Below, in pieces: positions 621 through 63,416 of a stretch of DNA of 64,000 nt. The notes beneath the pieces were generated by a model. The model saw only the letters and a program-made list of their open reading frames with translations, had not been told where the DNA came from and searched no databases. A program made the position numbers and the translations under genes. The stretch's first letter is position 1; the number at the start of each line of letters is the position of its first letter. Origin of the DNA: a virus; IMG/VR virus record IMGVR_UViG_3300029551_000174, positions 62,603 to 126,602 of that record, one strand, 5' to 3'.

Positions 621-642
621 CGTGAGACACACGTTAGCAACT
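621..642 (+). promoter_or_regulatory. Conserved hairpin element, copy 1 (cgtg-agaca-cacg + ttagcaact)
   Basis: Sequence motif shared with at least 11 other sites. Lies directly after the stop codon of the upstream CDS. Confidence 0.5.
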
Positions 643-667
643 TTGCTATGCAGAGAAAGGAAAGGCA

Positions 668-1270
668 GTGCGTGCATTGAAGACCAACTTCATTGAGAAT
701 GTGGATTTTATCAGTATTGCCAAAAATGGCAAAACTGCAACAGGTGGTTACAAAGAGGTTAGCTATCACCTCACCTCCGCTTGTTTGGAATATTTTGTTG
801 CTCGCAAGGTTCGTCCGGTGTTTGAAGTGTACCGCAAGGTCTTTCATTGTGTAGCACAAGGCATCATACCTTCTTATCAGATTGAAGACCCAATTGAGAG
901 AGCGAAGCGTTGGATAATGGAGCAGGAAGAGAAGAAAGCCATTGAGGAAAAGAACAAGGAAATGCAGCCAAAGGCAGAATACTTTGACAACTTAGTTGAC
1001 AAAGGTTTGCTTACGAACTTCCGAGATACAGCAAAGGAGATTGGTATGAAGCAGAATCTGTTCATCAAAACCTTGATTAAGAAAAAATACGTCTATCGTG
1101 ATAAACAGAATCACATTAAGCCATATTCGCAATACAATGGTGACTTGTTTAAGGTGAAAGACTGGGGAAACGACAAAGTTGTAGGTACAAGAACACTAAT
1201 CACACCAAAGGGAAAGGAGACATTCAGACTGCTTTTCGGAAATGGTAATATGCCTTCGTTGAATTTCTAG
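668..1270 (+). CDS. AntA/KilA-C type phage antirepressor-like protein
   Basis: GTG start. The N-terminal region resembles the AntA domain (KEVSYHLT..CLEYFV...VFEVYRK). The C-terminal KilA-C-like block (NLVDKGLLTN..KQNLF.K.L......NGDLFKVKDWG...TLITPKGKETF) resembles the C-terminal half of 3073..3999. Confidence 0.55.
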   Translation: MRALKTNFIENVDFISIAKNGKTATGGYKEVSYHLTSACLEYFVARKVRPVFEVYRKVFHCVAQGIIPSYQIEDPIERAKRWIMEQEEKKAIEEKNKEMQPKAEYFDNLVDKGLLTNFRDTAKEIGMKQNLFIKTLIKKKYVYRDKQNHIKPYSQYNGDLFKVKDWGNDKVVGTRTLITPKGKETFRLLFGNGNMPSLNF

Positions 1271-1943: not shown

Positions 1944-1966
1944 CGAGTCGGCACTCGTAAAACGGT
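1944..1966 (+). promoter_or_regulatory. Leader hairpin variant (cgag-tcggca-ctcg + taaaacggt)
   Basis: Same architecture as 18550-18573 (cgtg-ttcggca-cacg + taaaacggt), with a compensatory stem change. Confidence 0.5.
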
Positions 1967-1974: not shown

Positions 1975-2313
1975 ATGACTACTTCAATTAAGAACAAGAT
2001 GAGAAAGGTAATGCAGTTGGCACATAGAGCCTATCAGTTGAAATCAAGTTCAATGTCTTGGGTTGAGTGCTTGAAACAGGCTTGGCAGGTCGTAAAGCTT
2101 GAGGCAGCGATGAAGACCAAGGTTGTAGAGTTCTTCTTTATGAAGATGAATGGTGAGGTAAGACAAGCCTTTGGTACTCTCCTTCAGAGCCACATTGACT
2201 ATACTCCAAATGGTACAGGGCATGCAGCATCAAGAGATTGCATCCGCTATTGGGATGAGGCAAAGGGTGCATGGAGACAATTCAAGGCTTATAACTTCTT
2301 GCGAGTTGCATAA
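1975..2313 (+). CDS. hypothetical protein (paralog of 18799..19128)
   Basis: 112 aa. About 40% identical to the 18799 product (…FFMK.NGE.R.AFGTL…RQFKA.N..RVA). Confidence 0.6.
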   Translation: MTTSIKNKMRKVMQLAHRAYQLKSSSMSWVECLKQAWQVVKLEAAMKTKVVEFFFMKMNGEVRQAFGTLLQSHIDYTPNGTGHAASRDCIRYWDEAKGAWRQFKAYNFLRVA

Positions 2314-2407
2314 AGATATATACACGTTCAAAGGTGTTTGGCGAGGCTTGATAGGGGGTGTGCCTTTAAACACCCCTTTAATTTAGGACTTTTAAAGTAT
2401 TTGAGAT

Positions 2408-3072: not shown

Positions 3073-3999
3073 ATGACAGGATTCAAAAGTGAAAATGTCG
3101 AATTGGAGGCTTTGCCAGTAGCCTCATCAGTTTTAAACAACTTCAAAGAAGGAGGTGTTAGAGTTGTAGAAATTATTGAGCATGACGGCAAGCAATCCGT
3201 GAACGCAAGGGAACTGCACCAAAAGTTGGGCAGCAAGCAGCAGTTTGCTAATTGGATTAGAAATCGTATTGAAAAGTACGGATTCGTTGAAAATCAAGAC
3301 TTTTGCTCATTTAATAAAGTTATTAAACGAGAAAATGGTGCTACAACAGTTACAGAGTATGCCCTTTCGCTAGATATGGCGAAGGAGTTGTGCATGGTTG
3401 AGAACAACGAGAAAGGCAGGATGATTCGCAAGTACTTTATTGAGGTTGAGAAGAAGGCTAGAACACAAAATCCATTTGCAATTCCTCAGACTTATTCTGA
3501 AGCCTTGCTTCTTGCTGCAAACCAAGCAAAGCAAATCGAAAAGCAGCAATTGGCATTGGAGCAGAAGAAAATTGAGAATGACAAGCTGGTTGCAGATGGT
3601 AAGCGCAAGGACGCAACCATAGTACGTATGAAGCCTAAAGAGGTATTCACGGATGCGGTTGCAGGTAGCAAGGGCAATTGCCTAGTTGGTGAGGTTGCGA
3701 AGTTGATAACCCAGAATGGCTACAAGATTGGCGAAAAGCAATTTTTTGCTTGGTTGCGTGATAATGGCTACCTTGGAAAGAAAGGAGAGCGTTACAATAT
3801 TCCTAACCAGCAGTATATGGGTAAGAATCCTTTGTTTTATATCAAGAGAGGTGTGCGACAGGGTGATAATGGAGTGTTGCACACGACAAGTACAACAATG
3901 CTGACACCAAAGGGACAGATTTATTTCGTAAACAAGTTCCTTGGAAAAGGAGGTTTGCAAGGCGATCTGTTTGCGAATGGTGAGGCACACGATAAATAA
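3073..3999 (+). CDS. Phage antirepressor, Bro-N domain + KilA-C domain
   Basis: N-terminus (VEIIEHDGKQSVNARELHQKLGSKQQFANWIRNRIEKYGFVENQDF) is typical of Bro-N. C-terminal KilA-C-like region. Paralogs at 20277..21158 and 16936..17688. Confidence 0.75.
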   Translation: MTGFKSENVELEALPVASSVLNNFKEGGVRVVEIIEHDGKQSVNARELHQKLGSKQQFANWIRNRIEKYGFVENQDFCSFNKVIKRENGATTVTEYALSLDMAKELCMVENNEKGRMIRKYFIEVEKKARTQNPFAIPQTYSEALLLAANQAKQIEKQQLALEQKKIENDKLVADGKRKDATIVRMKPKEVFTDAVAGSKGNCLVGEVAKLITQNGYKIGEKQFFAWLRDNGYLGKKGERYNIPNQQYMGKNPLFYIKRGVRQGDNGVLHTTSTTMLTPKGQIYFVNKFLGKGGLQGDLFANGEAHDK

Positions 4000-4003
4000 A
4001 CTG
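3979..4003 (+). promoter_or_regulatory. Conserved hairpin element overlapping the 3' end and stop codon of the antirepressor gene (ggtg-aggca-cacg + ataaataaactg)
   Basis: Motif; encodes the C-terminal residues GEAHDK*. Confidence 0.5.
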
Positions 4004-4095
4004 TATTGTTAATAATGTGGGGACGTGGTTAGGCTGCGTCTCCACAATAAAAAAAAGATAGATGCAAGATATTAACAAATTATCAAGAAGAGACG

Positions 4096-7697: not shown

Positions 7698-7880
7698 ATG
7701 AAGAAAAGCGAATTGATTAAGAGACTGAGAGAAGCGGGATGCTTCCTGTCTCGACAAGGTTCGGGACATGAAAAATGGACTAATCCAAAAACGGGAAAGT
7801 CTCAATTCGTGCCAAGACACGCTAGAGAGGTCGCCACAGGCACCGCTCATAGTATTCTAAGAGAATTGGTTGGGGAGTAA
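7698..7880 (+). CDS. hicA: HicA family toxin (mRNA interferase), type II TA
   Basis: MKKSELIKRLREAGCFLSRQGSGHEKWTNPKTGKSQFVPRH.REV..GTAHSILREL is a canonical HicA signature. Start moved to an internal ATG of track ORF 7662..7880. Confidence 0.8.
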   Translation: MKKSELIKRLREAGCFLSRQGSGHEKWTNPKTGKSQFVPRHAREVATGTAHSILRELVGE

Positions 7881-7952: not shown

Positions 7953-8351
7953 ATGAAGAAGATTAAAGTTATTGTAGAACAAGCCAAGGATGGGTCTTTT
8001 TGGTGTCATACCGAAAATGGCATAGATAAGGTTGGTTTAAACTCTTGTGGAGAAACTGTTGCCGCTGCGAAGCAAGACTTAATGGATTGTTTGGTGTTGG
8101 CAAAAGAGGATGCAAAAGAGAATGGAGAAGTGTTTCCTGACGTTGAATTTGAATACAAGTATGACTTACAATCTTTCTTTAATTATTTCTCTTTCCTCAA
8201 TGTGTCAGAGATTGCAAAACGAGCAGGTGTCAATCCTTCATTGATGCGTCAGTATAGTAAAGGCATAAAGCAAGCTGGCGAGAAAACTTATGAACGTTTG
8301 GCACATTGTATGAATGAAATAAAAAAAGATTTGGTAGCCGCTACCTTTTAG
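7953..8351 (+). CDS. hicB: HicB family antitoxin (RNase H-like fold N-domain + C-terminal HTH)
   Basis: Immediately downstream of hicA. C-terminal HTH (SEIAKRAGVNPSLMRQYSKGIKQ). Confidence 0.7.
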   Translation: MKKIKVIVEQAKDGSFWCHTENGIDKVGLNSCGETVAAAKQDLMDCLVLAKEDAKENGEVFPDVEFEYKYDLQSFFNYFSFLNVSEIAKRAGVNPSLMRQYSKGIKQAGEKTYERLAHCMNEIKKDLVAATF

Positions 8352-8531: not shown

Positions 8532-11500
8532 ATGTCAACGTTAGAATTTAATATCAAAGCGAATTTCGACCAAATCAAGCAAGCCAAGCAAGAGCTTGTA
8601 AGATTGCAAGGTGAGTTATTGAAGACTTCGAGAGCGACAGATAAATCTGTGGTTCAAGACCTCACGGATAAATATGCGGAACAAAAGCGTAAAGTAACCG
8701 AACTAAACGAAGCAATGGGTCGTTATATTATGGTAACGAGCAGCGATTATGCAAAGAAAATGCAATCTTTGACAAGGGAAGTATATGCTTTTGAATTGCA
8801 AGCCGACTCGTCCAGGCGAAAGATAGAGAAGCTTTCCAATGAGATAGCGAAGATGGAAAGCAAAATGCGCAGAGGTGGCCTTGATGTAGGAACAAGCGCA
8901 ATTCTTTCTGATAATATATCATCCAGCTATGCCTCGTTGAAAGACGAAAAGGCTAGACTGGAGAATCTTACGGGATTAGGTAAGCAAGCGAGACAAGAGT
9001 TACAGAATATGCAAACGGAATATGCTAAGTATTCGGGTTCTGTATCTCCTGCTAAGGATATGACCAATCAAATGACAAATGCATTTGCCCAAATGATTGC
9101 GGAAATGAAGCAAGCCCCTACTGTCGGTGAAGGTATTTCTTCATTATTTGGTCGTTTGAATGGAGACGCAAGGCAACTAGCTATGAGTTTGGTTGGAGGT
9201 CTGGGTCTTGAACAATTGGCTGAGCACATCTTTAACGTCCGCTCTCAATTCCAACAATTGGAAATTTCTTTTACGACAATGTTGGGTAGTGAGCAAAAGG
9301 CTGGTGCGCTTATGGATGAACTTATCCAAACTGCTGCTCGCACACCTTTCAACATGACAGACGTTACAGAAGGCGCAAAACAACTTTTAGCATATGGAAT
9401 TCAAGCCAATGAAGTAAATGACACCTTGGTACATTTGGGTGATATAGCTTCTGGCCTTAATGTTCCTTTGTCGCAGCTTGTTTATTTGTACGGCACGACC
9501 ATTTCGCAAGGAAGAATGTTTACAATTGACTTGCGTCAATTCATGGGTCGAGGCATTCCGATGGCAGAGACGTTGGGGCAAATCATGGGTAAGACCGTAT
9601 CCCAAGTGCAAGAAGCAGTAACGAAAGGTGAAGTCGGTGCAGACCTTGTGAAAGAAGCGATTGTGAGGATGTCAAGCGAGGGCAGCAAATTCGGAGGCCT
9701 GATGAGCAAGCAAGCCGAAACCCTTCAAGGTCGTTGGTCGAACATAGAAGATACGATAGACCAAGCAATCAACTCTATAGGACAAAAGACACAAGGAATC
9801 TTTGGAACAGGTCTTGACTTAATATCTTCTCTGATAGAGAATTGGGAAACTTTGGTTAAAGTTATTGGTTCAGCGGCTGTTATGGTCGGAACTTACAAAG
9901 CTGGCTTGATGGCAGCGGCAAGCATTCAGAAGGTTCAGAATGCTATGACAATGGCATCAATCACAGAGGAACTTGATTCTAAGTTAGGAGAGGCAAGAGA
10001 CCAAGAAAACAACTTCCGTTCCTTAAATGGTAAAGACACCAAGCAGTATCGGGCAAATAGATACAAGGCTTTAGGTGATGCTATTGCCGATACGTCAAAC
10101 ATCGGTGATGATAAGACCGAGAAAATCGTCTCAAAACAAATTGAGATGGCGAGAAACGAGGGGCTTATCACCGAGCAGATGGCTCAACAACTCCAAACAA
10201 AGCGAGATTTATTGGTTGCCCAGCAAAAGGCTGCTGATAATGAGCGTATGGAGTATGAGAACGCAAAGCGGACAAAAGAAATAGAAGAGGAAGCCGCACG
10301 ACAGAAGAGAGCCGATGCGGAAATGGCTGCTGAAATAAACGCAAAGGCTGCAAAGAAAGCCGCTATAGACGAGGCTAACAATACTCCTTTGGGTAAGGCT
10401 ATTCTTAACACAAATGCTATAGAGGAAAAGAAGAAACAGGCAGAGGTAAGCATTGAATTAGCCAAAGAAGAAGCAAGGGAACAACATGGAATTGTTGAGG
10501 AAATCGGTGCTCAAATCAAAAAACAAGAAGAACTTGTAGCCGCAAAAAAGGAGCAGGTAAAGTCTTCATACCAAAACGTGACTGATTTGGGCGGTTATGA
10601 TGATAGCTTTGGTGATGATTTGAAATTACGAGACCAAGCAGTAAATCAATATGTAGCTGAGCAGCAAAAGTTGAACGACCTCAAGCAGAAGAGTTATGAG
10701 GCTTCCCAAAAGGCATATATCGCAGACCAAAAAGTATTGGGTATGCAAGAAGACCTTAAAGGTGTAACCCAAGAGCTTAATCAAGCTATAGAGGAGGAAA
10801 ACCGAATCTATGGAGAAACTGGCTCTAATGCGGACGAGATAAACAAGCTGGTGAATGAGGGGGTTGCGGCAAAAGAGGGCGATACGGCTGCGGTTAATGC
10901 AAATACTGCTGCTAAACAAGGGAACACGTCAACAGAAAATGCCAACTCAACGGCACGAAACGCTAATACCGGAGCTACCACAAGACAATCTGCATCAAAT
11001 GTGGCAAACACAACCACAGAGAATGTTAATTCTGCGGCTACCGGAGCGAATACGGCTTCTCAAAACGTGAATACAAGTGCGAAGCAACGCAATTCCTTTG
11101 TTACTGGTATGATGTCAGTTGGTACAAAGGCAGCAACCTTGGCTCAATCGGCTTTTTCTTGGGCAACTAATGCTTTGACAACAAGCTTGCGTAGTCTTTG
11201 GGCTGCAATGCTTGCAAATCCATTGACAACTGTCATTACTTTAGTGAGCACAGCTATTTCTGTATTCTCTATGTTTGGTGACGAAACTGAAGATGTTGCG
11301 ACAAAGACAACAAATATGGGGAATAAAGCATCCGAGGCTAGTGCCAAGGTTCGTTCCCTGTTTGCTATCTTAGGGGCAGGCAAGGATGCGGAAAACCACA
11401 AAGAGACAATAGATGCATTGAAAAGCGCATACGAAGAGTATGGTGTAAAGCTCGATGAAACAATTATGAAGTCCGAAAACGAAGCTTCAAAGGTACAAGA

Positions 11501-14500
11501 GCTTATAAAGCATAAGGAAGATTTGATAGGCGTTATCGAAGAGCAAACTATTGCTATGCAACATCAAAATGCCGTGCAGCAGATTTATGATACATACAAG
11601 AACGAGAAGGATAAAGCTAAAACGAATTTCATAAATGCCACGGATGGTGTTCTTACCAAGGAACAAGCAGGAATGGCGACAATGGTGGTAAGCCAAGAAG
11701 ATTTGGATAAAATGGCGAAGCTGCAAGATGAAATCGATGGATTGGATGAAAGGACTAACAAGTACAAAGAAACAGTAGCAAAGCTACGATTAGTATCTGG
11801 AAATGTATACAAGGATATTGAAGCGTACTATCTCAATCTGGGATTGACAAAAGAACAAATATCAGAAATAACCGCTGAGACATATAGCTATATTGCAGCA
11901 AGCACACGTGCCAATGTAAATAAGCAAAAGTCTCTTGAGATGGAGGATAAGTCAAGAGCGGCAGCAGAGAAAACAAGGAATGCTATTAATAATCTTTCAG
12001 GTAGTACAAAGGAGAATGCCGAACGTAACAGGTTGGCGAAAAAGTCATTTAAGGAAATGGCTGTTGAAATGGATGAAATCCGAAAGATTTGCGAGAGAAC
12101 TTATCATATGAAAATCAAGGTGGATTATGATGATAAATCATTGCCGGCTTGGATTAAGAATATGTCTCAGAGCCAAAGAGTAGAAAGTGCAAGAGCAAGA
12201 TTGGCATGGTTGAAAGCCCATAAGCCAGGAGATACAACAAAGAAGTTTGGTGGTGTAAATAAGGATTATTGGACTATTTATAATGAAAACCGAGGGCTTC
12301 AATACAAGGGGGAAAAGGTAGAGAGTACACCAACCGAGACTGAGGCTCAGAGAAAGAAACGTCTCGCTGCTGAAGCTAAGAAAAAACGTGAAGCGGAACG
12401 TGCGGCAACTAAGGCAGAGCGTGAAGCAAATCAAAAGGAGACGATGGCTGGTAACAAGCGCAAGGCTGAGGAGGACTATTCCAAGTCTATTTCATCCTAT
12501 TCGGAGAGAGCAAGCGATGAGTTGTCAAAGCGAAGAACGGAATTGATTAAGAATGAGACCGAAAAGGAGATTGCTCAAATTAATATGTCTTCAGACAAGG
12601 AGAAAAAGGCTATAGAGGATTCTATTGACAAACTCGTTGAGGCTAAGAAGAAGAAAGACCAGATCGTTTGGGTAAATTCGGGAAAAGGTCGTAAAGCCAA
12701 CATGTGGAAACAGGGTAAGTCCGATGCGGAATACCGCAAAGAGGTCTTGGACACACAAATGGTTGACGACAAGGGTAATCATCTTGGGAAGACCATTGGG
12801 CAGAACTCAGAAGACCAAATTGCCTTGATTGAGAAACAGAGGCAATTAAAGCTGAAGGAAATACAGCAAGCAGAGATTAAGGACATGTTGGATTTCATGA
12901 AGCAATACGGCAGCTTAGAGCAACAACGTTATGCTATTCTGAAAGAATACACGGACAAGATAGACCTTGCTAGAGAGAAAGGTGATACTTTTGGCGCAGC
13001 GAGTGCGGAAATGGAGATGAACGACCAGTTGAAGAAGTTGAATTTTACGGATTTCAAGGATTCTATCAATTGGGATGTTGTCTTTCAGGATATGAACCGA
13101 TTGAGTATTCCTTATCTTGAAGACCTTCGCAAGAAGATGAAGGAGTTGCTTGGTTCGGGTACGTTGGAAATTGATGACATGAAATCCGTATCTGACCAAA
13201 TCTACAAGATTGATGATGCGATTTCCGAGCAGAAGGATAGATGGGGATTGGTTAATGATGCAGTCCGTGAACACCGTAGGCTTATTGATGAGGCAAAGGA
13301 TGCGCAAGACCGATTGGCACAAGCTAGGAAGGGGGAGTTTGATGCCAAGGCTGATAATATGAGCCAAAGGAGAAAAATCCAAGGCGTGTTTGCAGAAAGT
13401 GGGGTTAACATAGATACCAGTAATATCACTTCTGCCAATAAGGACAAACTTATGAGTTCTACCAAGAATCTCAGTGTAAGCCAAACGGAGAAGTTACGTA
13501 AGCTTTTTGATGATTTGGCGGTTTCAGAGGTTAAGGTTGGAAAGGCAACAAAGGAAGTTGGAAAGGCACAGGAAGAAGCCAAGGTAAAGCAGGATGCTGC
13601 AAAGAAGAGCTTGCATGATACTATAGAGGAATGGGCTGAGGGCTTGAGGAAAATCCAAGAGAAGCTGAAAGACCTTCCTGGGTTAGTCGATGCGTTAGGT
13701 CTCGGAAGCACAGGCTTTGGTAAAGCTGTAAATAATGGAATGGATGCATTGAACAGTGGAACACAAGCCTTTTCTGATTTTGCAAGCGGAAACTACATAG
13801 GCGCAGCTATGAATGGAATAAAAACCATTAGCTCGTTGGGTAAGATGTTCGGTATTGGCGGAGGTAATGGTGCAGAAGTTGCGAAGAAAACAGAAGAGCT
13901 GACCGAGAGCAATGACAGATTGATGTATTCCATTGATAAGTTAAAAGAGTCTATTGACAAATCTTCCGGTTATACAGCCGTCAGCAACTATAATGCTGCT
14001 TACGATGCTCAAAAACAGGTTAACACCCAAACGATGGATATTCTCAAAACACAGATGGGGTATCATGGGGCACACCATTCAAATGCTTATTATTGGAATC
14101 TTTCTGCACAAGATTATGCGGCAATCAATAAGACTTTGGCTGAGCAAAGTAAGATAAGGGGTGGTTATACTAATTCTTCGATAAACAAGGTCAATTCCTT
14201 GGAGGATATATACAAGCTCACTCCAGAGCAGATGGCTGACATTCGTACACATAATGCGGATGTATGGAAGAACATGACCGACCAAGGCAAGTATGATAAG
14301 ACGGAATATTGGGAGCAATATACAGAACTGGCGGGAAAACTAGAGGAGTTGACGGAGCAAATCAATGAGAATTTGACTCAAACAACCTTTGATTCGATGA
14401 AGAGTGACTTCATAAACAATCTTATGGATATGAGTAAGTCTGCAAAGGATTTTTCTAATGACTTCACTACAATGCTCAACCAGTCGATGCTTAACTTCGC

Positions 14501-15065
14501 TTTGGGAGACCTTATGAATAAAAAGCTTAAGCCTCTTTATGAGAGCTGGGCAAACAAGATGAAGGAGAATGGAGGAAGGCAGCTCACGCCAACCGAATTG
14601 AATAATCTTAAAGAAGAGTATGATAAGATAGTTCAAGAGGGTTTGGCTATTCGTGATAATATTGCTGATATTACGGGTTACAAGCAATCTTACGAGCAGT
14701 CCGCTTCTTCCGGTTCTTTTGAATCAATGAGCCAAGATACAGGAGAAGAGTTGAATGGTCGTTTCACAGCGGTGCAGATCGCCACAGAGGGAACGTACGA
14801 GGAAGCAAAGCTCATAAATACCAAGTTGGATGCTATTGCTGCTCGTGATGGTGGTATAGAGGGTAGCTTATTAACGGCTAGCGTGAATACCATTATGGGT
14901 GATGTAGGTAATATATGGACCGCCGTTGATGAGGGAAGAACCATTCTTGCACAAAGTTTGATGTGCTTGCAGTCGATAGATGAGCGACAAGAAAGCTGGA
15001 ATAAGCATATTTTACAGATGAGCCGTAATCTTGACACTATCAAAAACAAGGTGGATAGGTTGTAA
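8532..15065 (+). CDS. Tail tape-measure-like protein (2177 aa)
   Basis: Uninterrupted 6.5 kb ORF. Extensive coiled-coil-type K/E/Q-rich sequence. Internal hydrophobic segment (FSWATNALTTSLRSLWAAMLANPLTTVITLVSTAISVFSMF). N/T/A-rich degenerate repeats (NANTAAKQGNTSTENANSTARNANTGATT...). Confidence 0.65.
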   Translation: MSTLEFNIKANFDQIKQAKQELVRLQGELLKTSRATDKSVVQDLTDKYAEQKRKVTELNEAMGRYIMVTSSDYAKKMQSLTREVYAFELQADSSRRKIEKLSNEIAKMESKMRRGGLDVGTSAILSDNISSSYASLKDEKARLENLTGLGKQARQELQNMQTEYAKYSGSVSPAKDMTNQMTNAFAQMIAEMKQAPTVGEGISSLFGRLNGDARQLAMSLVGGLGLEQLAEHIFNVRSQFQQLEISFTTMLGSEQKAGALMDELIQTAARTPFNMTDVTEGAKQLLAYGIQANEVNDTLVHLGDIASGLNVPLSQLVYLYGTTISQGRMFTIDLRQFMGRGIPMAETLGQIMGKTVSQVQEAVTKGEVGADLVKEAIVRMSSEGSKFGGLMSKQAETLQGRWSNIEDTIDQAINSIGQKTQGIFGTGLDLISSLIENWETLVKVIGSAAVMVGTYKAGLMAAASIQKVQNAMTMASITEELDSKLGEARDQENNFRSLNGKDTKQYRANRYKALGDAIADTSNIGDDKTEKIVSKQIEMARNEGLITEQMAQQLQTKRDLLVAQQKAADNERMEYENAKRTKEIEEEAARQKRADAEMAAEINAKAAKKAAIDEANNTPLGKAILNTNAIEEKKKQAEVSIELAKEEAREQHGIVEEIGAQIKKQEELVAAKKEQVKSSYQNVTDLGGYDDSFGDDLKLRDQAVNQYVAEQQKLNDLKQKSYEASQKAYIADQKVLGMQEDLKGVTQELNQAIEEENRIYGETGSNADEINKLVNEGVAAKEGDTAAVNANTAAKQGNTSTENANSTARNANTGATTRQSASNVANTTTENVNSAATGANTASQNVNTSAKQRNSFVTGMMSVGTKAATLAQSAFSWATNALTTSLRSLWAAMLANPLTTVITLVSTAISVFSMFGDETEDVATKTTNMGNKASEASAKVRSLFAILGAGKDAENHKETIDALKSAYEEYGVKLDETIMKSENEASKVQELIKHKEDLIGVIEEQTIAMQHQNAVQQIYDTYKNEKDKAKTNFINATDGVLTKEQAGMATMVVSQEDLDKMAKLQDEIDGLDERTNKYKETVAKLRLVSGNVYKDIEAYYLNLGLTKEQISEITAETYSYIAASTRANVNKQKSLEMEDKSRAAAEKTRNAINNLSGSTKENAERNRLAKKSFKEMAVEMDEIRKICERTYHMKIKVDYDDKSLPAWIKNMSQSQRVESARARLAWLKAHKPGDTTKKFGGVNKDYWTIYNENRGLQYKGEKVESTPTETEAQRKKRLAAEAKKKREAERAATKAEREANQKETMAGNKRKAEEDYSKSISSYSERASDELSKRRTELIKNETEKEIAQINMSSDKEKKAIEDSIDKLVEAKKKKDQIVWVNSGKGRKANMWKQGKSDAEYRKEVLDTQMVDDKGNHLGKTIGQNSEDQIALIEKQRQLKLKEIQQAEIKDMLDFMKQYGSLEQQRYAILKEYTDKIDLAREKGDTFGAASAEMEMNDQLKKLNFTDFKDSINWDVVFQDMNRLSIPYLEDLRKKMKELLGSGTLEIDDMKSVSDQIYKIDDAISEQKDRWGLVNDAVREHRRLIDEAKDAQDRLAQARKGEFDAKADNMSQRRKIQGVFAESGVNIDTSNITSANKDKLMSSTKNLSVSQTEKLRKLFDDLAVSEVKVGKATKEVGKAQEEAKVKQDAAKKSLHDTIEEWAEGLRKIQEKLKDLPGLVDALGLGSTGFGKAVNNGMDALNSGTQAFSDFASGNYIGAAMNGIKTISSLGKMFGIGGGNGAEVAKKTEELTESNDRLMYSIDKLKESIDKSSGYTAVSNYNAAYDAQKQVNTQTMDILKTQMGYHGAHHSNAYYWNLSAQDYAAINKTLAEQSKIRGGYTNSSINKVNSLEDIYKLTPEQMADIRTHNADVWKNMTDQGKYDKTEYWEQYTELAGKLEELTEQINENLTQTTFDSMKSDFINNLMDMSKSAKDFSNDFTTMLNQSMLNFALGDLMNKKLKPLYESWANKMKENGGRQLTPTELNNLKEEYDKIVQEGLAIRDNIADITGYKQSYEQSASSGSFESMSQDTGEELNGRFTAVQIATEGTYEEAKLINTKLDAIAARDGGIEGSLLTASVNTIMGDVGNIWTAVDEGRTILAQSLMCLQSIDERQESWNKHILQMSRNLDTIKNKVDRL

Positions 15066-15130: not shown

Positions 15131-15865
15131 GAAAGTAGCCGAGGGAAAAATTTCCCCGAGGGTTCATTTCCTAAATTTGTGAAATGAAGAAGTAAGAAGA
15201 TGCTCGCTTAATAAAATTATTAGATGAGGGGTTAAGCATCATTTACCCCCATTGAAAGCAAATGGTAAGGTTTTTCATAAAGTTGTGAAAAACGTATGCA
15301 GTACAAATCCATAGAAAATGTGTTCATAATAAGTGTATGGAAATTGACAAAAAGTGTCAACGATTAAAAAAAACAAAAAATCACATTAGTCTATATTATT
15401 TATCAGATGTAGGGGTGTCGCTACAGGCTACACCCCTTAGACTTGCCAAAATTGGCAAAACTGACCCAAACAAAGTTTGTATTAGGTGTTCCTAGGATGG
15501 AAACCCTTTAGCGTTGACTAATAAGCGTGAATGAAAGATAATAATTACTAAGATAGTAGAACCAGATGGTGATTGCTAGCAAGATTAAGAAGATGGTGCA
15601 AGGATGATAGAAAAGGGGTGTCTTCAAAAATGATAATACCCCAAAATTGGTGTATTTGGTAGCCTCAGCGATTAAAAGGTGTAAAAATCTCACCTTATTG
15701 TTTATTAAAAGAGGTCTCCACAATTTTGAGGACACCCCATTTTGTAGGTTTTAGCCAGAATTGTCAAAAACTGATTAAGGGTAGGAACATTGTTCCGATC
15801 AGGTTATCCACAAGGGGTTTTTAACTAGATAGTTATAAACTTGATAGGAACACTTTCAACGAGTC

Positions 15866-16898: not shown

Positions 16899-16921
16899 CG
16901 TGAGTCACACGTTAAAAACTG
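16899..16921 (+). promoter_or_regulatory. Conserved leader hairpin element (cgtg-agtca-cacg + ttaaaaactg)
   Basis: Motif family. Confidence 0.5.
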
Positions 16922-16935
16922 AAAAGGAAAATAGA

Positions 16936-18020: not shown

Positions 18021-18269
18021 TTATCCCTCCACCTTAATATTGATAGGCTTACCACAATGAGGGCAAGTAAAGATTGGCTTGGTTGGTTCTATTTCATCTT
18101 TAAAGAAGTCACCAACTTTGCACCCTAATACATCAGCAATACGTAGCAATGTCTTCATCGTTGGGTTACGGCTGAGGTTTTGGGTGAAAGTAAATCTTGT
18201 AATACCCATTTCTTTTGCTACCTGTTCGATAGTAAATCCCTTTTCTTTGATAATTGTTTTAACGTCCAT
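18021..18269 (-). CDS. XRE-family HTH regulator with C-terminal zinc ribbon (CPHCGKPI), copy 2
   Basis: HTH (FTIEQVAKEMGITRFTFTQNLSRNPTMKTLLRIADVLG) followed by C-x-x-C. Confidence 0.7.
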   Translation of the reverse strand: MDVKTIIKEKGFTIEQVAKEMGITRFTFTQNLSRNPTMKTLLRIADVLGCKVGDFFKDEIEPTKPIFTCPHCGKPINIKVEG

Positions 18270-18549: not shown

Positions 18550-18573
18550 CGTGTTCGGCACACGTAAAACGGT
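18550..18573 (+). promoter_or_regulatory. Leader hairpin variant (cgtg-ttcggca-cacg + taaaacggt)
   Basis: Pairs with the 1944-1966 variant. Confidence 0.5.
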
Positions 18574-18581: not shown

Positions 18582-18764
18582 ATGACTACTTCAATGATAA
18601 GAAGAAACTTGATTCAGAAGTTCGTTATGACAGAGTTCGTAAGCAACAGAATGAACACCCAAAAGGACGTTGATAGAATGTTGAATATGATAACAATAAA
18701 GCTCAATATGAACAACGATGAGGCTAAGAGCTTCTTGCGTGAGAGCATCGGACTTGCAAAGTAA
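18582..18764 (+). CDS. hypothetical small protein
   Basis: 60-aa ORF after the leader hairpin. Confidence 0.4.
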   Translation: MTTSMIRRNLIQKFVMTEFVSNRMNTQKDVDRMLNMITIKLNMNNDEAKSFLRESIGLAK

Positions 18765-18798: not shown

Positions 18799-19128
18799 AT
18801 GGCTACTACATTTAAGAATATGATGAGAGAAGTGATGAAGCTTGCTTGGCAGTTCATCAAGAAGAATGGCTACACAATGAGCGAGGCTTTAAAGGTCGCT
18901 TGGATGAACATCAAGCTGAAGGGTCAGATGAAGAAGCGCATCGTGAAGTTCTACTTCCAGAAGGTTGATGGCAGCTTGCGTGAGGCATTCGGCACATTGA
19001 GCGAGAAGGTTATCCCAGCTACACAGGGTGCAGGTCGCAAGATGAATGACACTTGCCAAGTGTACTTTGATACCGAGAAAGAAGAATGGCGTTGCTTCAA
19101 GAAGGCAAACCTTATGAGAGTTGCATAA
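18799..19128 (+). CDS. hypothetical protein (paralog of 1975..2313)
   Basis: Alignment. Confidence 0.6.
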   Translation: MATTFKNMMREVMKLAWQFIKKNGYTMSEALKVAWMNIKLKGQMKKRIVKFYFQKVDGSLREAFGTLSEKVIPATQGAGRKMNDTCQVYFDTEKEEWRCFKKANLMRVA

Positions 19129-19160: not shown

Positions 19161-19460
19161 ATGAGCGCAAAGATTATCGTGATGCAAGGCAACATGGTTG
19201 CAACCATCGAAGAGACGAACAAGGACGCATTTCTCAAGCGTGGAGAGTATAAAGAGACCGATCTGGACAGACATAAGCGTGAGGTCGATTTCTTGATTAC
19301 AAGCATCGCTAACCGCTACGAAGTGACATTCAATCACAAGGTAGAGCTGAAGGAAAGCCGAAGCATCAAGAAAAGCGAGTATTTCGATAACATCTACTAC
19401 GTTACCGAGAATGCATTGAACAAGCTGAAAAAGCAATACTCATACGAGTGTGACTTGTAA
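19161..19460 (+). CDS. hypothetical protein
   Basis: ORF in series. Confidence 0.45.
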   Translation: MSAKIIVMQGNMVATIEETNKDAFLKRGEYKETDLDRHKREVDFLITSIANRYEVTFNHKVELKESRSIKKSEYFDNIYYVTENALNKLKKQYSYECDL

Positions 19461-19467: not shown

Positions 19468-19490
19468 CGTGAGGCACACGCTAAACTGCA
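19468..19490 (+). promoter_or_regulatory. Conserved hairpin element (cgtg-aggca-cacg + ctaaactg)
   Basis: Motif family. Directly after the stop of 19161..19460. Confidence 0.5.
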
Positions 19491-19832: not shown

Positions 19833-19858
19833 GGTGAGGCACACTTGAACAACTGCAC
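19833..19858 (+). promoter_or_regulatory. Conserved hairpin element (ggtg-aggca-cac + ttgaacaactg)
   Basis: Motif family. Confidence 0.45.
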
Positions 19859-20276: not shown

Positions 20277-21158
20277 ATGACATTAGAATTTAACAAAACT
20301 GATGTAAATGTAGAGGCTTTACCAGTAGTCTCAGAGTTCCTTAACAAAGAAAAGAGAGGTATTGAAGTTGTAGAGATTATCGAGCATGACGGCAAACAAG
20401 CCGTGAACGCAAGGGAGCTGCACCAAAAGTTGGGCAGTAAGCAAGACTTTTCAACATGGATTAAAAATCGCATAGAAAAGTATGGATTCGTTGAAAATCA
20501 AGATTTTGAAGTTTTCCACAAAATTATGGAAAACTCAAATGGTGGTCGAAGTCGTATTGAGTATGCCTTATCTTTGGATATGGCAAAGGAGTTGTGTATG
20601 ATAGAGAACAATGAGCAAGGTAGATTGTTCCGTAAGTACTTCATCGAAGTCGAGAAAGTTGCCAGAGTCAAGTACGAGCAGGAGAAGCTGGACAAGAAGG
20701 CTTCCGATTCCTTTGACATCAAGCTGAAGTGGTTGAACTTTCTTCCTGGTTATCTGAACCTCAGCGATGTTTCCAAATTGGCGATGGCTAAGAAAATTGC
20801 TGAACCATTAGGGTTGCCGACACCTGATTATGTGAGCGCACCGAATGGTGCAAAGCATTCCGCTACGGAGTTATTGAAATCTCATGGTGTAGGCTTGTCT
20901 GCTCGAAAGTTCAATGAGTTGGCGGTAAAGGCAGGATTATTGAAGCTAAAAGAGCGCAAGGGTACGAACAAGGTACACAAGTATTGTGAGATTACCAAGA
21001 AAGGATTGGCTTATGGTGAGAACGACATCAACGAGAAGAATATGAATCAAACACAACCACATTGGTATGATTCTAAATTTGGGGAGGTATTGGAAATCAT
21101 CGGCTACAAGTCATCCAAGCAAGTAGATATGTTTGCAAGCGGTGAGACACACGATTAA
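20277..21158 (+). CDS. Phage antirepressor, Bro-N domain protein
   Basis: N-terminus (VEIIEHDGKQAVNARELHQKLGSKQDFSTWIKNRIEKYGFVENQDF) is ~90% identical to 3073..3999. The C-terminus differs and matches 16936..17688. Confidence 0.75.
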   Translation: MTLEFNKTDVNVEALPVVSEFLNKEKRGIEVVEIIEHDGKQAVNARELHQKLGSKQDFSTWIKNRIEKYGFVENQDFEVFHKIMENSNGGRSRIEYALSLDMAKELCMIENNEQGRLFRKYFIEVEKVARVKYEQEKLDKKASDSFDIKLKWLNFLPGYLNLSDVSKLAMAKKIAEPLGLPTPDYVSAPNGAKHSATELLKSHGVGLSARKFNELAVKAGLLKLKERKGTNKVHKYCEITKKGLAYGENDINEKNMNQTQPHWYDSKFGEVLEIIGYKSSKQVDMFASGETHD

Positions 21159-22715: not shown

Positions 22716-22759
22716 TTTTGCGCCTACATATATAATAAGCGTTAAAATGCAAAAGAAAT

Positions 22760-22812
22760 ACATTAAATAATTTGCATATTTCGATAATTCTTTGTATCTT
22801 TGCATCGTAATT
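22760..22812 (+). promoter_or_regulatory. Bacteroidetes promoter (ataatttgca ... tgtatctttgca), part of the repeated promoter-leader cassette
   Basis: Consensus. 22741-22862 is ~97% identical to 44401-44527. Confidence 0.6.
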
Positions 22813-22837
22813 AAGAAACAAGGTTACTAATTAAAAA

Positions 22838-22861
22838 GGTGAGACACACCGTAAAAACTGT
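22838..22861 (+). promoter_or_regulatory. Conserved leader hairpin element (ggtg-agaca-cacc + gtaaaaactgt)
   Basis: Motif family. Confidence 0.55.
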
Positions 22862-22869
22862 GATTCGTT

Positions 22870-23091
22870 ATGAATACTAGATTGAGTAAGAAAGAAACAA
22901 TGGTTTATGGCAATATCGAAGTGATGGCTGATGTAATTGGTGGTAACAAGTACTTTACATTTGCTGAGTTGTATGATTTCGATTTGGATAATACCAAGGA
23001 TGAGTTGAAAGAAATGTTAAACTCTTTGACAGAGAAAGGTTACTTGAAGAGTTTTCACGATTTCTACGAAACTTATCGAGTTTTAAAGTAA
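22870..23091 (+). CDS. hypothetical protein
   Basis: First ORF after the promoter-leader cassette. Confidence 0.45.
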   Translation: MNTRLSKKETMVYGNIEVMADVIGGNKYFTFAELYDFDLDNTKDELKEMLNSLTEKGYLKSFHDFYETYRVLK

Positions 23092-23100
23092 GAATAACAA

Positions 23101-23121
23101 AGGGGATATAAAATCCCCTTA
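23101..23121 (+). terminator. Hairpin (aagggga-tataaaa-tcccctt)
   Basis: Perfect 7-bp stem. Confidence 0.45.
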
Positions 23122-23137
23122 CAATATAAATTTAGAA

Positions 23138-23160
23138 CGTGAGACACACGTAAAACTGTA
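23138..23160 (+). promoter_or_regulatory. Conserved hairpin element (cgtg-agaca-cacg + taaaactgta)
   Basis: Motif family. Confidence 0.5.
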
Positions 23161-23257
23161 TTGAAACAATGAAAAAGGTATTCACAATTGAGAATGCGTT
23201 AGCGTTTTTATTTGCTCTTGAAATAGTATCTTTAATTTATTTTCTAGGATAGGGCTT

Positions 23258-44291: not shown

Positions 44292-44419
44292 CCCAAAGAC
44301 AAAATACCTTTGAGTGCTTTGCCCCATCACTATATATAATAATGTAGTGGTGGGGATTTTTGTGTTAACATCAGCAAATTATCCGTCTGTATTATTATAG
44401 TATGTTAAATACTAAAAGA

Positions 44420-44472
44420 AACACATTAAATAGTTTGCATATTTCGATTATTCTTTGTATCTTTGCATCGTA
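44420..44472 (+). promoter_or_regulatory. Bacteroidetes promoter, copy of the 22760 promoter-leader cassette
   Basis: 44401-44527 is ~97% identical to 22741-22862. Confidence 0.6.
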
Positions 44473-44500
44473 ATTAAGAAACAAGGTTACTAATTAAAAA

Positions 44501-44524
44501 GGTGAGACACACCTTAAAAACTGT
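44501..44524 (+). promoter_or_regulatory. Conserved leader hairpin element (ggtg-agaca-cacc + ttaaaaactgt)
   Basis: Motif family. Confidence 0.55.
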
Positions 44525-44533
44525 AATGAGAAA

Positions 44534-46902: not shown

Positions 46903-47087
46903 AAGAGCTTAAAGTTGGCGAAAGAGTAACCATTACTCTTGAAGTTGTTGAACGTAAAGGTGGCTGCAAAGGATGTTTCTTTAGTACATCAGGATCGTGT
47001 TTTAAACGTGCTGATTTTGATTTTGCATGTTTAAGATGTGAACGTTCAGACAAAAAGTGTATAATCTTTAAAGAAGTTAAGGAGTAA
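46899..47087 (+). CDS. Small Cys-rich protein (MKELK start)
   Basis: CKGCFFSTSGSCFKRADFDFACLRCERSDKKC. Confidence 0.4.
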   Translation: MKELKVGERVTITLEVVERKGGCKGCFFSTSGSCFKRADFDFACLRCERSDKKCIIFKEVKE

Positions 47088-47092
47088 AGCGT

Positions 47093-47326
47093 ATGAATGG
47101 ATTATTATCAATGATTGGAGTGGTAACTAGAATAGATTATCAAATGGGTGATGATTTTCCTTTTGGTTCTCCAAGCCCTAGACTTGGTACACCAAATGGC
47201 AACATTCCTTCTGATAAACAGAAGTGTCAGCCAAAGGCGCAGCATGAGTTTATCATCAAGGGTATTAAGATTATGGCAGCTTCTAAGAAAGATGCTATCA
47301 AAAAGTATAATCATCGTAAAAAGTAA
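47093..47326 (+). CDS. hypothetical protein
   Basis: Preceded by the junction motif GTAAAGCGTATG. Confidence 0.4.
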   Translation: MNGLLSMIGVVTRIDYQMGDDFPFGSPSPRLGTPNGNIPSDKQKCQPKAQHEFIIKGIKIMAASKKDAIKKYNHRKK

Positions 47327-63308: not shown

Positions 63309-63393
63309 TTCACAAATAATATGAAATCACTTTTGTTACTATATAGGAATGCACAAGTCTTATGCATAACAAAAGCCCTTAGAGAAGACCTTA

Positions 63394-63416
63394 CAGTTTT
63401 TATGGTGTGTCTCACC
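63394..63416 (-). promoter_or_regulatory. Conserved leader hairpin element on the minus strand (ggtg-agaca-cacc + ataaaaactg)
   Basis: Reverse complement of cagtttttatggtgtgtctcacc. Confidence 0.55.

What the first reader, a model, noticed from the sequence alone, without database searches (positions are those of the whole stretch)
22838..22861. Recurrent small hairpin with compensatory stem changes plus conserved TAAAAACTG tail, in at least 12 copies
The element NGTG-AG(A/G/T)CA-CACN followed by (g/t)TAAAAACTG(T) occurs at 621, 3979, 16899, 19468, 19833, 21141, 22838, 23138, 44501 and, on the minus strand, 63394. Relatives sit at 1944 and 18550 (cNNg-tcggca-cNNg + TAAAACGGT). The stem nucleotides co-vary while preserving pairing: ggtg/cacc, cgtg/cacg, cgag/ctcg. 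The loop (AGACA / AGGCA) and the 3' tail stay constant. That pattern points to selection on structure, not on coding, in either RNA or DNA. Copies sit about 35-45 nt downstream of the -7 promoter box, so inside the 5' leaders, or directly after stop codons inside operons. A linear box plus a hairpin resembles nut/put-type processive-antitermination sites or a binding site for a phage RNA-binding regulator. No comparable element is known to me from Bacteroidales phages.
Basis: seen in the sequence. Interest (0 to 1): 0.85.

Follow-up and report, generated by a model that had tools for sequence, protein, structure and literature searches.

The report
Conserved hairpin module beside ribosome-binding sites
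A 25-base RNA hairpin with a fixed loop and A-rich tail sits at a set distance in front of start codons in this gut phage, in hundreds of other phages and mobile elements of two bacterial phyla, and before one housekeeping gene, so it is most likely an uncatalogued translation-initiation signal rather than a phage antitermination site.

Summary
The window holds 10 exact copies of GTGAGNCACAC, each followed by an A-rich tract and CTG (CTT at 621). It also holds 2 variant copies. All 12 lie on the sense strand of the local genes.

Shown:
- The stem pairs through compensatory and G·U changes, including changes within one genome and within tandem arrays.
- The loop AGNCA and the tail A(n)CUG are almost invariant.
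- The element ends 8-9 nt before ATG in Shine-Dalgarno-less (Bacteroidota-type) leaders. In Clostridia-type leaders it ends 0-4 nt before the SD.
- It occurs gene by gene, sometimes as 3-4 tandem units with different stems.
- It is found in at least 120 viral contigs, in prophage or ICE-like regions of Bacteroidota and Clostridia, and upstream of chromosomal cysS in one Bacteroidales clade.
- No Rfam 15 family matches it, and no paper in the searched library contains the sequence.

Inferred:
- It acts at translation initiation using host factors only, possibly as a ribosome-docking or standby module.
- A mini-pseudoknot (loop NCA with UGN) is possible, but its covariation support is weak.

The nut/put antitermination reading is poorly supported. 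Function and direction of effect remain untested. I rate this a new variant of a known kind, interest 0.68.

The parts
22838..22861 (+). Reference copy: gGUG-AGACA-CACc + GUAAAAACUGU. It ends 8 nt before ATG 22870 (73-aa gene) and lies 37 nt after a Bacteroidota-type -7 box.
   Evidence: Sequence; CM 41.2 bits, E 7.5e-9; promoter
44501..44524 (+). Copy gGUG-AGACA-CACc + UUAAAAACUGU, 9 nt before ATG 44534. It lies inside a 93%-identical duplicate of the 22741-22864 promoter-leader cassette.
   Evidence: (44.9 bits)
63393..63416 (-). Minus-strand copy gGUG-AGACA-CACc + AUAAAAACUGU. It lies 13 nt after a -7 box at the head of the leftward helicase operon. The nearest ATG is 25 nt downstream; the helicase ATG is 84 nt downstream.
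   Evidence: (40 bits)
23138..23159 (+). Copy cGUG-AGACA-CACg + UAAAACUGU, just after a terminator-like hairpin and 9 nt before the ATG of a 27-codon ORF.
   Evidence: (38.9 bits)
16899..16922 (+). Copy cGUG-AGUCA-CACg + UUAAAAACUGA, 13 nt before ATG 16936 (Bro-N antirepressor gene).
   Evidence: (38.5 bits)
19833..19856 (+). Intercistronic copy gGUG-AGGCA-CACu (G·U outer pair) + UGAACAACUGC. The next ATG is 38 nt downstream.
   Evidence: (35.3 bits)
19468..19489 (+). Intercistronic copy cGUG-AGGCA-CACg + CUAAACUGC. It starts 8 nt after the stop of ORF 19161-19460 and ends 32 nt before ATG 19522.
   Evidence: (29 bits)
621..644 (+). Degenerate copy cGUG-AGACA-CACg + UUAGCAACUUU (CUU, not CUG), between ORF 161-619 and the KilAC gene 668-1270.
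   Evidence: (23.7 bits)
3979..4004 (+). Copy gGUG-AGGCA-CACg (G/G outer mismatch) with a long tail, overlapping the last codons and stop of Ant gene 3073-3999.
   Evidence: 20.1 bits
21141..21163 (+). Copy gGUG-AGACA-CACg (G/G outer mismatch) overlapping the last codons and stop of the paralogous Ant gene 20277-21158.
   Evidence: (14.1 bits, E 0.14)
1944..1966 (+). Variant copy cGAGU-CGGC-ACUCg + UAAAACGGU, 8 nt before ATG 1975 (WYL_2/Sm-like gene).
   Evidence: Not found by the CM.
18550..18573 (+). Variant copy cGUGU-UCGGC-ACACg + UAAAACGGU, 8 nt before ATG 18582 and 62 nt after a full -33/-7 promoter.
29462..29476 (+). Tentative diverged relative: GGUG-AGAGCGA-CACC hairpin in a third, 64%-identical copy of the promoter-leader cassette. 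A second hairpin follows, then AAACAACUAG, about 12 nt before ATG 29513.
   Evidence: Membership not established.
22741..22837 (+). Promoter-leader cassette (TTTG ... TAtcTTTG, then about 35 nt of leader) that delivers the element. It is duplicated at 44404-44500.

Best explanation
The element is a roughly 25-nt cis-acting module of the mRNA leader. It has three parts: a 4-5 bp hairpin (core usually GUG/CAC), a near-invariant pentaloop A-G-N-C-A, and a 3' tail of A-rich tract plus CUG(U).

It is placed by reference to the ribosome-binding site. In Shine-Dalgarno-less Bacteroidota-type leaders its last base lies 8-9 nt before AUG, which is where an SD helix would sit. In Clostridia-type leaders it abuts the SD, 0-4 nt upstream. 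It is used gene by gene, mostly on first cistrons or after intergenic gaps. In some prophages it is stacked as 3-4 tandem units with different stems in front of the scaffold gene.

I think it acts at translation initiation and needs only host components. The most likely role is a structured docking, standby or start-positioning module at the mRNA exit side of the 30S subunit that raises or standardises initiation on mobile-element genes. It may fold further into a BWYV/preQ1-I-like mini-pseudoknot (loop N-C-A with U-G-N', A-rich strand along the stem).

Shown: the hairpin, the strand, the conserved loop and tail, the placement, the distribution. Inferred: the translational role, its direction, the ribosome as partner, the pseudoknot.
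For: Copies and significance.

Stem pairing:
- Outer pair GC 30, CG 21, UG 5, AU 3, GU 3, UA 3, other 2 in 68 distinct copies. No shuffle of 500 reaches the covariation score.
- Searches anchored on loop and tail only give 14 distinct fully paired non-GUG/CAC stems among 94 anchors, about 2 expected.
- Different stems occur within one tandem array.
- G·U pairs are present, and no A·C or C·A combination appeared in the tables, so the structure forms on the sense strand.

Placement:
- The distance from CUG to ATG peaks at 9-10 nt in about 30 of 50 unrelated downstream gene families. The same peak appears in bacterial genomes.
- In SD-bearing leaders the CUG-to-GGAG distance is 0, 3 or 4 nt in 32 of 41 cases.
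- Distance from the promoter varies from 13 to 62 nt.
- In the window all element-bearing genes follow gaps over 40 nt, and 6 of 7 lack an SD.

Host factors suffice:
- Four Bacteroidales MAGs carry the element between a Bacteroidota promoter and chromosomal cysS, and synteny is conserved where it could be checked (Exo_endo_phos downstream in 2 of the 4, purE nearby in 3).
- More distant cysS orthologues (76-82% identity) lack it.
- The same loop and tail occur in Bacteroidota and Clostridia elements.
Against: - There are no expression data of any kind, so enhancer versus repressor is a guess.
- Most genes in the window have neither an SD nor the element, so it is not required for translation here.
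- Five window copies lie 25-38 nt or more from the next ATG.
- The hairpin alone is weak, -4 to -6.5 kcal/mol, with z-scores mostly not significant.
- Covariation for the proposed pseudoknot pair is weak in a non-redundant set: 65% paired against 59% expected, and mutual information no higher than unrelated column pairs.
- The two invariant candidate pairs cannot be tested, and the variant copies do not fit that register.
- The near-invariant loop and tail imply a specific partner that I could not identify. No convincing complementarity to 16S rRNA was found.
Confidence: 0.4

Rival explanations
1. The element is the operator of a sequence-specific RNA-binding protein, host- or element-encoded. 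The protein would bind the AGNCA loop and A-rich/CUG tail next to the ribosome-binding site and repress or activate many genes together. T4 RegA, gp32 and phage coat-protein operators work this way.
For: Near-invariance of the loop and tail, beyond what pairing requires, suggests direct recognition. Placement next to the RBS suits steric control. Tandem arrays fit cooperative binding. The window encodes candidate nucleic-acid binders: two WYL_2/Sm-like proteins, each in the unit headed by a variant copy, and an ASCH protein.
Against: The same element sits before chromosomal cysS with no phage nearby. It also occurs in elements of two phyla, so any protein partner would have to be universal or travel with the element. 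No such shared protein was found, although no systematic search was made. The SD itself is never sequestered.
Confidence: 0.2
2. The element is an mRNA processing or stability determinant. It could be a cleavage signal for a widespread RNase (RNase Y/E/J type), or a 5' structure that protects the downstream cistron after processing. Either would set differential expression within operons.
For: Some copies follow stop codons or terminator-like hairpins inside operons. Tandem units before a highly expressed scaffold gene could act as serial barriers. The position relative to the promoter varies.
Against: A stabiliser or cleavage site does not need an 8-9 nt register with AUG, or 0-4 nt with the SD, across dozens of gene families. 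The hairpin is thermodynamically weak.
Confidence: 0.12
3. The element is a minimal ligand-sensing pseudoknot, riboswitch-like and similar in architecture to preQ1-I. A small molecule would stabilise loop-tail pairing next to the RBS.
For: The architecture resembles preQ1-I: a short stem, an A-rich tail, possible loop-tail pairing and an unpaired conserved C at the junction. The element ends at the RBS as translational riboswitch pseudoknots do. Tandem aptamers are known for riboswitches.
Against: No Rfam riboswitch model matches, even at E up to 10. The 5-nt loop leaves no L2 pocket strand. Downstream genes are functionally unrelated: antirepressors, ArdC, SSB, ParB, scaffold, cysS, helicase. 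The SD is not sequestered. Support for the pseudoknot is weak.
Confidence: 0.07
4. The element is a nut/put-like processive antitermination site. The hairpin plus linear box in the nascent RNA would modify RNA polymerase, with or without a phage protein.
For: A hairpin followed by a conserved linear box lies downstream of early-type promoters at 16899, 18550, 22838, 44501 and 63416. This order resembles boxB-boxA of rrn leaders (my own knowledge).
Against: Several copies occur per transcription unit and before successive cistrons (three copies in 1.5 kb in L130). Tandem arrays lie immediately upstream of one SD and downstream of a terminator-like hairpin. The register with AUG or the SD is fixed. 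No boxA-like sequence exists in the window. The loop is not a GNRA-like boxB loop. The element also occurs on chromosomal cysS. Among the 40 window proteins scanned, no N- or Q-like protein or RNA polymerase appeared.
Confidence: 0.06
5. The feature acts at the DNA level. It could be a hairpin promoter for a phage RNA polymerase (N4-like), a single-strand priming signal (hairpin plus CTG), or a palindromic operator.
For: The 4-bp inverted repeat with a 5-bp spacer could be a protein half-site pair. CTG is the E. coli primase initiation triplet (my own knowledge). Strand bias also fits a lagging-strand template.
Against: G·U pairs occur, and no A·C appeared in the tables. Stems differ within one genome and within one array, which argues against a single dimeric protein. 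The register with AUG or the SD is unexplained. The 2177-aa ORF is a tape-measure protein, not a virion RNA polymerase. Host-type promoters lie upstream.
Confidence: 0.04

Closest known systems
preQ1-I riboswitch (Rfam RF00522), the smallest translational riboswitch pseudoknot
   Same: Both have a short stem followed by an A-rich tail ending in C-U-N. Both allow possible loop-tail pairing. In both, the 3' end lies at the ribosome-binding site, and tandem copies occur.
   Different: The covariance model does not match. The loop is 5 nt rather than 10-12 nt, with no L2 strand carrying the ligand-pairing C. The SD is not sequestered. There is no link to queuosine genes.
Luteovirus-type compact H-type pseudoknots (BWYV frameshift signal)
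   Same: If the pseudoknot forms, its geometry is nearly the same: 4-5 bp stem 1, 2-nt loop 1, 3-bp stem 2 and a 6-8 nt A-rich loop. This comparison rests on my own knowledge of the BWYV structure.
   Different: The element lies in 5' leaders and intergenic spacers, not inside overlapping ORFs. No slippery heptamer lies upstream. Evidence for the pseudoknot is weak.
Lambda/P22 nut sites and rrn boxB-boxA leaders
   Same: Both combine a small hairpin with a conserved pentaloop and a conserved linear box in the leader RNA of early operons.
   Different: There is no boxA consensus. The loop is AGNCA, not GNRA-like. Copies are per cistron and tandem, in fixed register with AUG or the SD. The element is present on a chromosomal housekeeping gene.
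T4 translational operators (gene 32 leader pseudoknot; RegA sites)
   Same: Both are small leader structures or sequences close to the start codons of phage genes that govern translation. Some downstream genes here encode SSB.
   Different: The T4 gene 32 pseudoknot lies 40-70 nt upstream and serves one gene. RegA sites are unstructured and AU-rich. Here one structured module serves at least 50 unrelated gene families in two phyla.
Upstream translational enhancers and standby sites (A/U-rich S1 sites, T7 gene 10 epsilon)
   Same: Both are portable elements immediately 5' of the ribosome-binding site that work with host ribosomes only. This is the closest functional analogy to the preferred explanation.
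   Different: Known enhancers are unstructured. This element is a conserved hairpin with a specific loop and tail. Its effect on translation is untested.

Membership tests
preQ1-I riboswitch | Matches the Rfam covariance model RF00522 | tested here: not met
   No hit at gathering threshold over the whole window. No hit at E up to 10 over 22810-23190, L006 6680-6960 or 18520-18600.
preQ1-I riboswitch | 10-12 nt loop holding the P2 5' strand and a conserved C that pairs with the ligand | tested here: not met
   The loop is 5 nt (AGNCA) in all main copies.
preQ1-I riboswitch | Located upstream of queuosine/preQ1 synthesis or transport genes | tested here: not met
   Downstream genes are antirepressors, WYL_2, ThyX, helicase, ArdC, SSB, ParB, scaffold and CysRS.
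Lambda-type nut site | boxA-like linear element (GCUCUUUAACAA-like) next to the hairpin | tested here: not met
   Four matches with 2 mismatches against 10 expected by chance, none near a copy.
Lambda-type nut site | One site per operon, promoter-proximal and upstream of terminators | tested here: not met
   Copies precede successive cistrons (19468, 19833, 21141; three in 1.5 kb of L130). Tandem arrays also occur.
Lambda-type nut site | Cognate N-like arginine-rich antiterminator encoded by the phage | not tested
   Only 40 of about 121 window ORFs were scanned. N-like proteins are too short and divergent for these libraries.
HK022 put RNA | Two adjacent stem-loops of about 65-70 nt acting on RNA polymerase | tested here: not met
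   The element is one 13-nt hairpin plus a 10-nt tail.
-1 frameshift pseudoknot (BWYV type) | Slippery heptamer 5-8 nt upstream, inside an ORF overlap | tested here: not met
   Six copies lie in promoter-proximal leaders with no upstream ORF. No X XXY YYZ motif precedes the others.
H-type pseudoknot (as a fold, independent of function) | Covariation supporting loop-to-3'-tail pairing | tested here: inconclusive
   Loop nt 3 against the base after CUG gives AU 33, GU 8, GC 7, UA 3, UG 2, other 15. After redundancy reduction it is 65% paired against 59% expected. The two other candidate pairs never vary.
Type III toxin-antitoxin RNA repeats (ToxI-like) | Near-identical tandem repeats followed by a ToxN/AbiQ-type toxin gene | tested here: not met
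   Array units differ in stem sequence and precede a scaffold-like gene (MNLQLFAE...).
N4-like hairpin promoter | DNA hairpin with a 3-nt loop used by a giant virion RNA polymerase | tested here: not met
   The loop is 5 nt. The only giant ORF (8532-15065) matches tape-measure families. G·U pairs are tolerated. Host-type promoters lie upstream.

The most novel reading that the evidence does not exclude
The element is a structure-based, Shine-Dalgarno-independent ribosome-docking signal, in effect a 25-nt bacterial mini-IRES. It would occupy the SD-helix site on the 30S platform and place the AUG 8-9 nt downstream in the P site. Phages and conjugative elements would spread it because it works in Bacteroidota, whose anti-SD is sequestered. 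In Clostridia it would stack onto the SD helix.
Probability: 0.18. Interest if true: 0.9.

Novelty: new variant of a known kind. Interest (0 to 1): 0.68.

Why it matters
How Bacteroidota ribosomes choose start codons without Shine-Dalgarno pairing is still unsettled. The way gut phages and mobile elements compete for those ribosomes is essentially unstudied.

This small, portable, highly conserved module sits exactly where an SD helix would be. It is shared by mobile elements of two dominant gut phyla and has been taken up by a housekeeping gene. That gives a concrete, mutable handle on the question.

If it raises or standardises translation, it would also be a useful part for engineering Bacteroides. 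If it is instead an operator or a sensor, it defines a regulon of early and establishment genes spanning many gut phages. Either way it is a widespread RNA motif absent from Rfam 15.

Tried and rejected
- **Rfam.** The whole window at gathering threshold gave only 5 tRNAs. Permissive scans of two main copies, a tandem array and a variant copy gave nothing relevant.
- **Literature.** Searches by sequence string and by topic returned no paper describing the motif. The S1/pseudoknot paper concerns the Tte preQ1 riboswitch only.
- **Pseudoknot covariation.** It looked strong in the window: 9 of 10 copies can pair. It faded in a redundancy-reduced set, so I demoted the pseudoknot to tentative. An alternative register (loop AG with tail CU) fits the variant copies but cannot be tested, because those positions are invariant.
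- **16S rRNA complementarity.** Comparing the loop and tail with E. coli rrsA gave only chance-level runs, the best lying inside helix 45.
- **Cultured phages.** BLAST of the promoter-leader cassette and of a tandem array against GenBank phages found only uncultured 'Bacteriophage sp.' contigs, or nothing. The major capsid protein has only distant cultured relatives.
- **Thermodynamics.** Hairpins are not more stable than shuffled sequences, so energy gives no support either way.
- **Generic promoter/terminator scan** of 16-24 kb was not above chance.
- **TTAACAATTTAAA.** This second apparent leader motif is not enriched.
- **cysS.** I asked whether the element is a general feature of Bacteroidales cysS. 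It is not: it is absent from orthologues at 76-82% identity.

Full report

Yes. GTGAGNCACAC occurs ten times as an exact match. Nine copies lie on the + strand among + strand genes. One lies on the - strand at the head of the leftward operon. Shuffles give 1.8 matches even when one mismatch is allowed. With the tail included there are 6 matches against 0.01 expected.

I built a covariance model from 48 related copies, with only the 4-bp stem as structure. Searched over the window with filters off, it recovers exactly these ten sites (E 8e-10 to 0.14) and then only noise.

The two relatives at 1944-1966 and 18550-18573 are as described. They have different stems and a UCGGC(A) loop, and their tail is UAAAACGGU. 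They precede paralogous genes.

Four corrections apply:
- The exact tail TAAAAACTG is present in only four copies.
- Copy 621 ends in CTT rather than CTG.
- Inside the window only the outermost stem pair varies.
- Copies 3979 and 21141 lie in the last codons of paralogous Ant/KilAC genes.

**2. The genome around it**

The window belongs to a large siphovirus-like phage. It encodes:
- a tape-measure protein (8532-15065), a major head protein (32652-33740), RtcB, DNA methyltransferases and a helicase;
- five tRNAs;
- Bro-N and KilAC antirepressors, ThyX, RNase H, HicA, ASCH, NinG and two WYL_2 (formerly DUF2693, Sm-like) proteins.

The promoters are of the Bacteroidota type, TTTG ... TAnnTTTG. 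The closest capsid relatives among cultured phages infect Cellulophaga, Riemerella and Porphyromonas. The only close DNA relatives in GenBank phages are uncultured human-gut contigs.

**3. Structure**

In 68 distinct copies aligned to the model:
- The outer stem pair is GC 30, CG 21, UG 5, AU 3, GU 3, UA 3, unpaired 2.
- The three inner pairs are almost always G-C, U-A, G-C.
- No shuffle of 500 reaches the observed covariation. Slid registers collapse to 12-50% paired, against 91% for the true register.

That scan fixed the core sequence. I therefore re-anchored on loop and tail alone, within the flanks of the fetched loci. This gave 14 distinct fully complementary non-GUG/CAC stems among 94 anchors, where about 2 are expected. 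Examples are GUGC/GCAC, GGGG/CCCC, CCGG/CCGG, GCGC/GCGC, AGAG/CUCU and GCUG/CAGC. Most of these come from tandem arrays.

A second viral scan anchored only on AGACA-N5-TAAAAACTGT gave 54 contexts. Thirty have a perfect stem, all GGUG/CACC or CGUG/CACG. The other 24 look random.

So the stem pairs, but its core sequence is itself constrained when the element occurs singly. G·U pairs are frequent, and no A·C or C·A combination appeared in the unique-copy tables. This places the structure on the sense strand. Stems also differ within one genome and within one array, which argues against a palindromic protein operator.

The hairpin is weak on its own: -4 to -6.5 kcal/mol, with z-scores mostly not significant.

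**4. A pseudoknot?**

In the window, loop nucleotide 3 and the base after CUG can pair in nine of ten copies: A-U, G-C twice, U-A, G·U. The invariant loop C-A could pair with the invariant U-G. That would give a fold with the proportions of BWYV or preQ1-I pseudoknots.

Across unique copies the pattern first held. After redundancy reduction and inclusion of the bacterial loci it weakened:
- 65% paired against 59% expected from base frequencies.
- Mutual information was no higher than for unrelated column pairs.
- In the main SD-less class the base after CUG is U in 43 of 48 representatives, whatever the loop base.
- Some apparent mismatches arise because an SD starts at that base (CUG|GAGG).

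I therefore treat the pseudoknot as possible but not shown.

**5. Placement**

This is the most informative result.
- Across about 50 unrelated downstream gene families in the viral loci, the distance from the G of CUG to ATG peaks sharply at 9-10 nt. The bacterial loci show the same peak. The element therefore ends at about -9.
- In leaders that have a Shine-Dalgarno sequence (Clostridia-type), GGAG begins 0, 3 or 4 nt after CUG in 32 of 41 cases.
- The distance from the promoter -7 box varies from 13 to 62 nt. Six window copies have no promoter within 150 nt.
- In the window, every element-bearing gene follows an intergenic gap of more than 40 nt, and six of seven lack an SD. Tightly packed genes often carry AGGAGG.
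- Copies can precede successive cistrons. Examples are 19468, 19833 and 21141, and three copies in 1.5 kb before ArdC, a 72-aa gene and DUF6876 in L130.
- In Clostridia-type prophages, three PK-type units with different stems, preceded by a GCCCGAAGGC-type hairpin unit, lie between a terminator-like hairpin and the SD of a scaffold-like gene.

**6. Distribution**

About 170 chance matches are expected in 596 Gb. The chance-like hits are recognisable by an AGCCA loop, unpaired flanks and unrelated phyla.

Real copies occur in two groups:
- Bacteroidota: Bacteroides, Alistipes, Prevotella/Segatella, Parabacteroides, Tannerella, Chitinophagales.
- Clostridia: Lachnospiraceae, Blautia, Eubacterium, Faecalibacterium.

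One Ignavibacteria MAG also carries copies. Downstream genes include an HTH regulator, a ParB-like protein, ArdC, SSB and DUF6876.

Unexpectedly, the downstream gene is cysteinyl-tRNA synthetase in four Bacteroidales MAGs. There the order is Bacteroidota promoter, short variable leader, element, 8 nt, ATG. Synteny with neighbouring chromosomal genes is conserved where it could be checked: Exo_endo_phos downstream in two MAGs and purE nearby in three. CysRS orthologues at 76-82% identity lack the element. It was therefore recruited in one clade. This shows the element can operate without any phage.

**7. What it most likely is**

Four findings are hard to reconcile with a nut/put-type antitermination site:
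- a fixed register with AUG or the SD;
- gene-by-gene use and tandem stacking;
- the same loop and tail in two phyla;
- use on a housekeeping gene.

The window also has no boxA-like sequence, and the loop is not boxB-like.

These findings fit a module of the translation-initiation region that works with universal host components. My preferred reading (confidence 0.4) is a structured docking, standby or start-positioning element at the mRNA exit side of the 30S subunit. In Bacteroidota it occupies the SD position. In Clostridia it abuts the SD helix.

The direction of the effect is inferred from three things only. The SD is never sequestered, and the element precedes both a scaffold gene, which I assume is highly expressed, and a housekeeping gene.

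The near-invariant loop and tail could equally mark a protein operator (0.2). Processing or stability control (0.12), a minimal riboswitch (0.07), antitermination (0.06) and DNA-level roles (0.04) remain as rivals.

**8. Comparison with known systems, and novelty**

No Rfam 15 family matches, at gathering or at permissive thresholds. The searched paper library does not contain the sequence. A large catalogue of candidate phage RNAs does not describe it in its main text. Its supplementary tables were not checked.

The element resembles preQ1-I and BWYV-type pseudoknots in size and in the A-rich strand. It resembles nut in being a hairpin plus a box, and T4 translational operators in its location. 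It fails the defining features of each (see the membership table).

I class it as a new variant of a known kind: a cis-acting leader structure at the ribosome-binding site.

The most novel reading not excluded is an SD-independent, structure-based ribosome-docking signal. I put its probability at about 0.18.

Noticed in passing
L006 6790-6930; L103 4000-4120; also L017, L019, L051 and many genome loci such as L124, L198, L213: Clostridia-type prophages carry tandem arrays upstream of an AAGGAG SD and a scaffold-like gene (M..MNLQLFAE..). Each array has three units with different stems, preceded by a 'GCCCGAAGGC..AAAACUAC' hairpin unit, and follows a terminator-like hairpin.
   Followed up: partly
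L185 (~2170-2330, minus strand), L224 5120-5310, L217, L221: The same element lies between a Bacteroidota promoter and chromosomal cysS (CysRS) in four Bacteroidales MAGs. Neighbouring chromosomal genes (Exo_endo_phos, purE) are conserved where checked. More distant cysS orthologues (L241-L246) lack the element.
   Followed up: yes
window 22741-22864, 44404-44527, 29344-29467: A 124-nt promoter-leader cassette occurs three times (93% and 64% identity to the first). The third copy has a diverged hairpin GGUG-AGAGCGA-CACC (29462-29476), an extra hairpin and the tail AAACAACUAG, upstream of the amidoligase-like gene 29513-30442.
   Followed up: partly
window 717-737 and 15443-15463: A second hairpin type, TTGCCA-AAA(A/T)-TGGCAA followed by AACTG, occurs twice against 0 expected. 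One copy is inside the KilAC ORF 668-1270. The other lies in the gap after the tape-measure gene.
   Followed up: no
window 1975-2313 and 18799-19128 (with 18582-18764): Two WYL_2 (formerly DUF2693, Sm-like SH3 barrel) genes sit in the units headed by the two variant copies. The modules are duplicated, including a 77-nt repeat (1321-1397 / 18042-18118, 83%) and divergent minus-strand promoters at about 1436 and 18309.
   Followed up: partly
window 3152-3451 and 20356-20655 (genes 3073-3999, 20277-21158): Paralogous Ant/KilAC antirepressor genes (300-nt repeat, 77% identity) each end inside a copy of the element. Each is preceded by an exact TTAACAATTTAAA, although that motif is not enriched overall.
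   Followed up: partly
window 32630-32651 and about 20 other gene starts (e.g. 39457, 46579, 50546-51337, 54556): Clear AGGAGG-type Shine-Dalgarno sequences precede the major head gene and many tightly packed genes. This is notable in a phage whose promoters are of the Bacteroidota type.
   Followed up: no
window 47080-56030: A run of small genes is joined by near-identical junctions: '..GTAAAGCGT ATG' three times and '..AGTAGCGT ATG' about six times. This suggests serial duplication or a conserved reinitiation junction.
   Followed up: no
window 28326-28763: A cluster of five tRNA genes (Glu, Gln, Tyr, Lys and one with an unclear anticodon call) lies downstream of a Bacteroidota-type promoter at about 28183.
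   Followed up: no
window 7698-7880 and 7953-8351: A HicA mRNA-interferase toxin gene with its own promoter, plus a likely HicB partner, lies immediately upstream of the tape-measure gene.
   Followed up: no
window 1-168 / 45414-45581 (95%) and 324-481 / 45725-45882 (75%): The start of the window repeats part of gene 45067-46035. A paralogue of that gene therefore appears to lie at, and is cut by, the left edge of the window.
   Followed up: no
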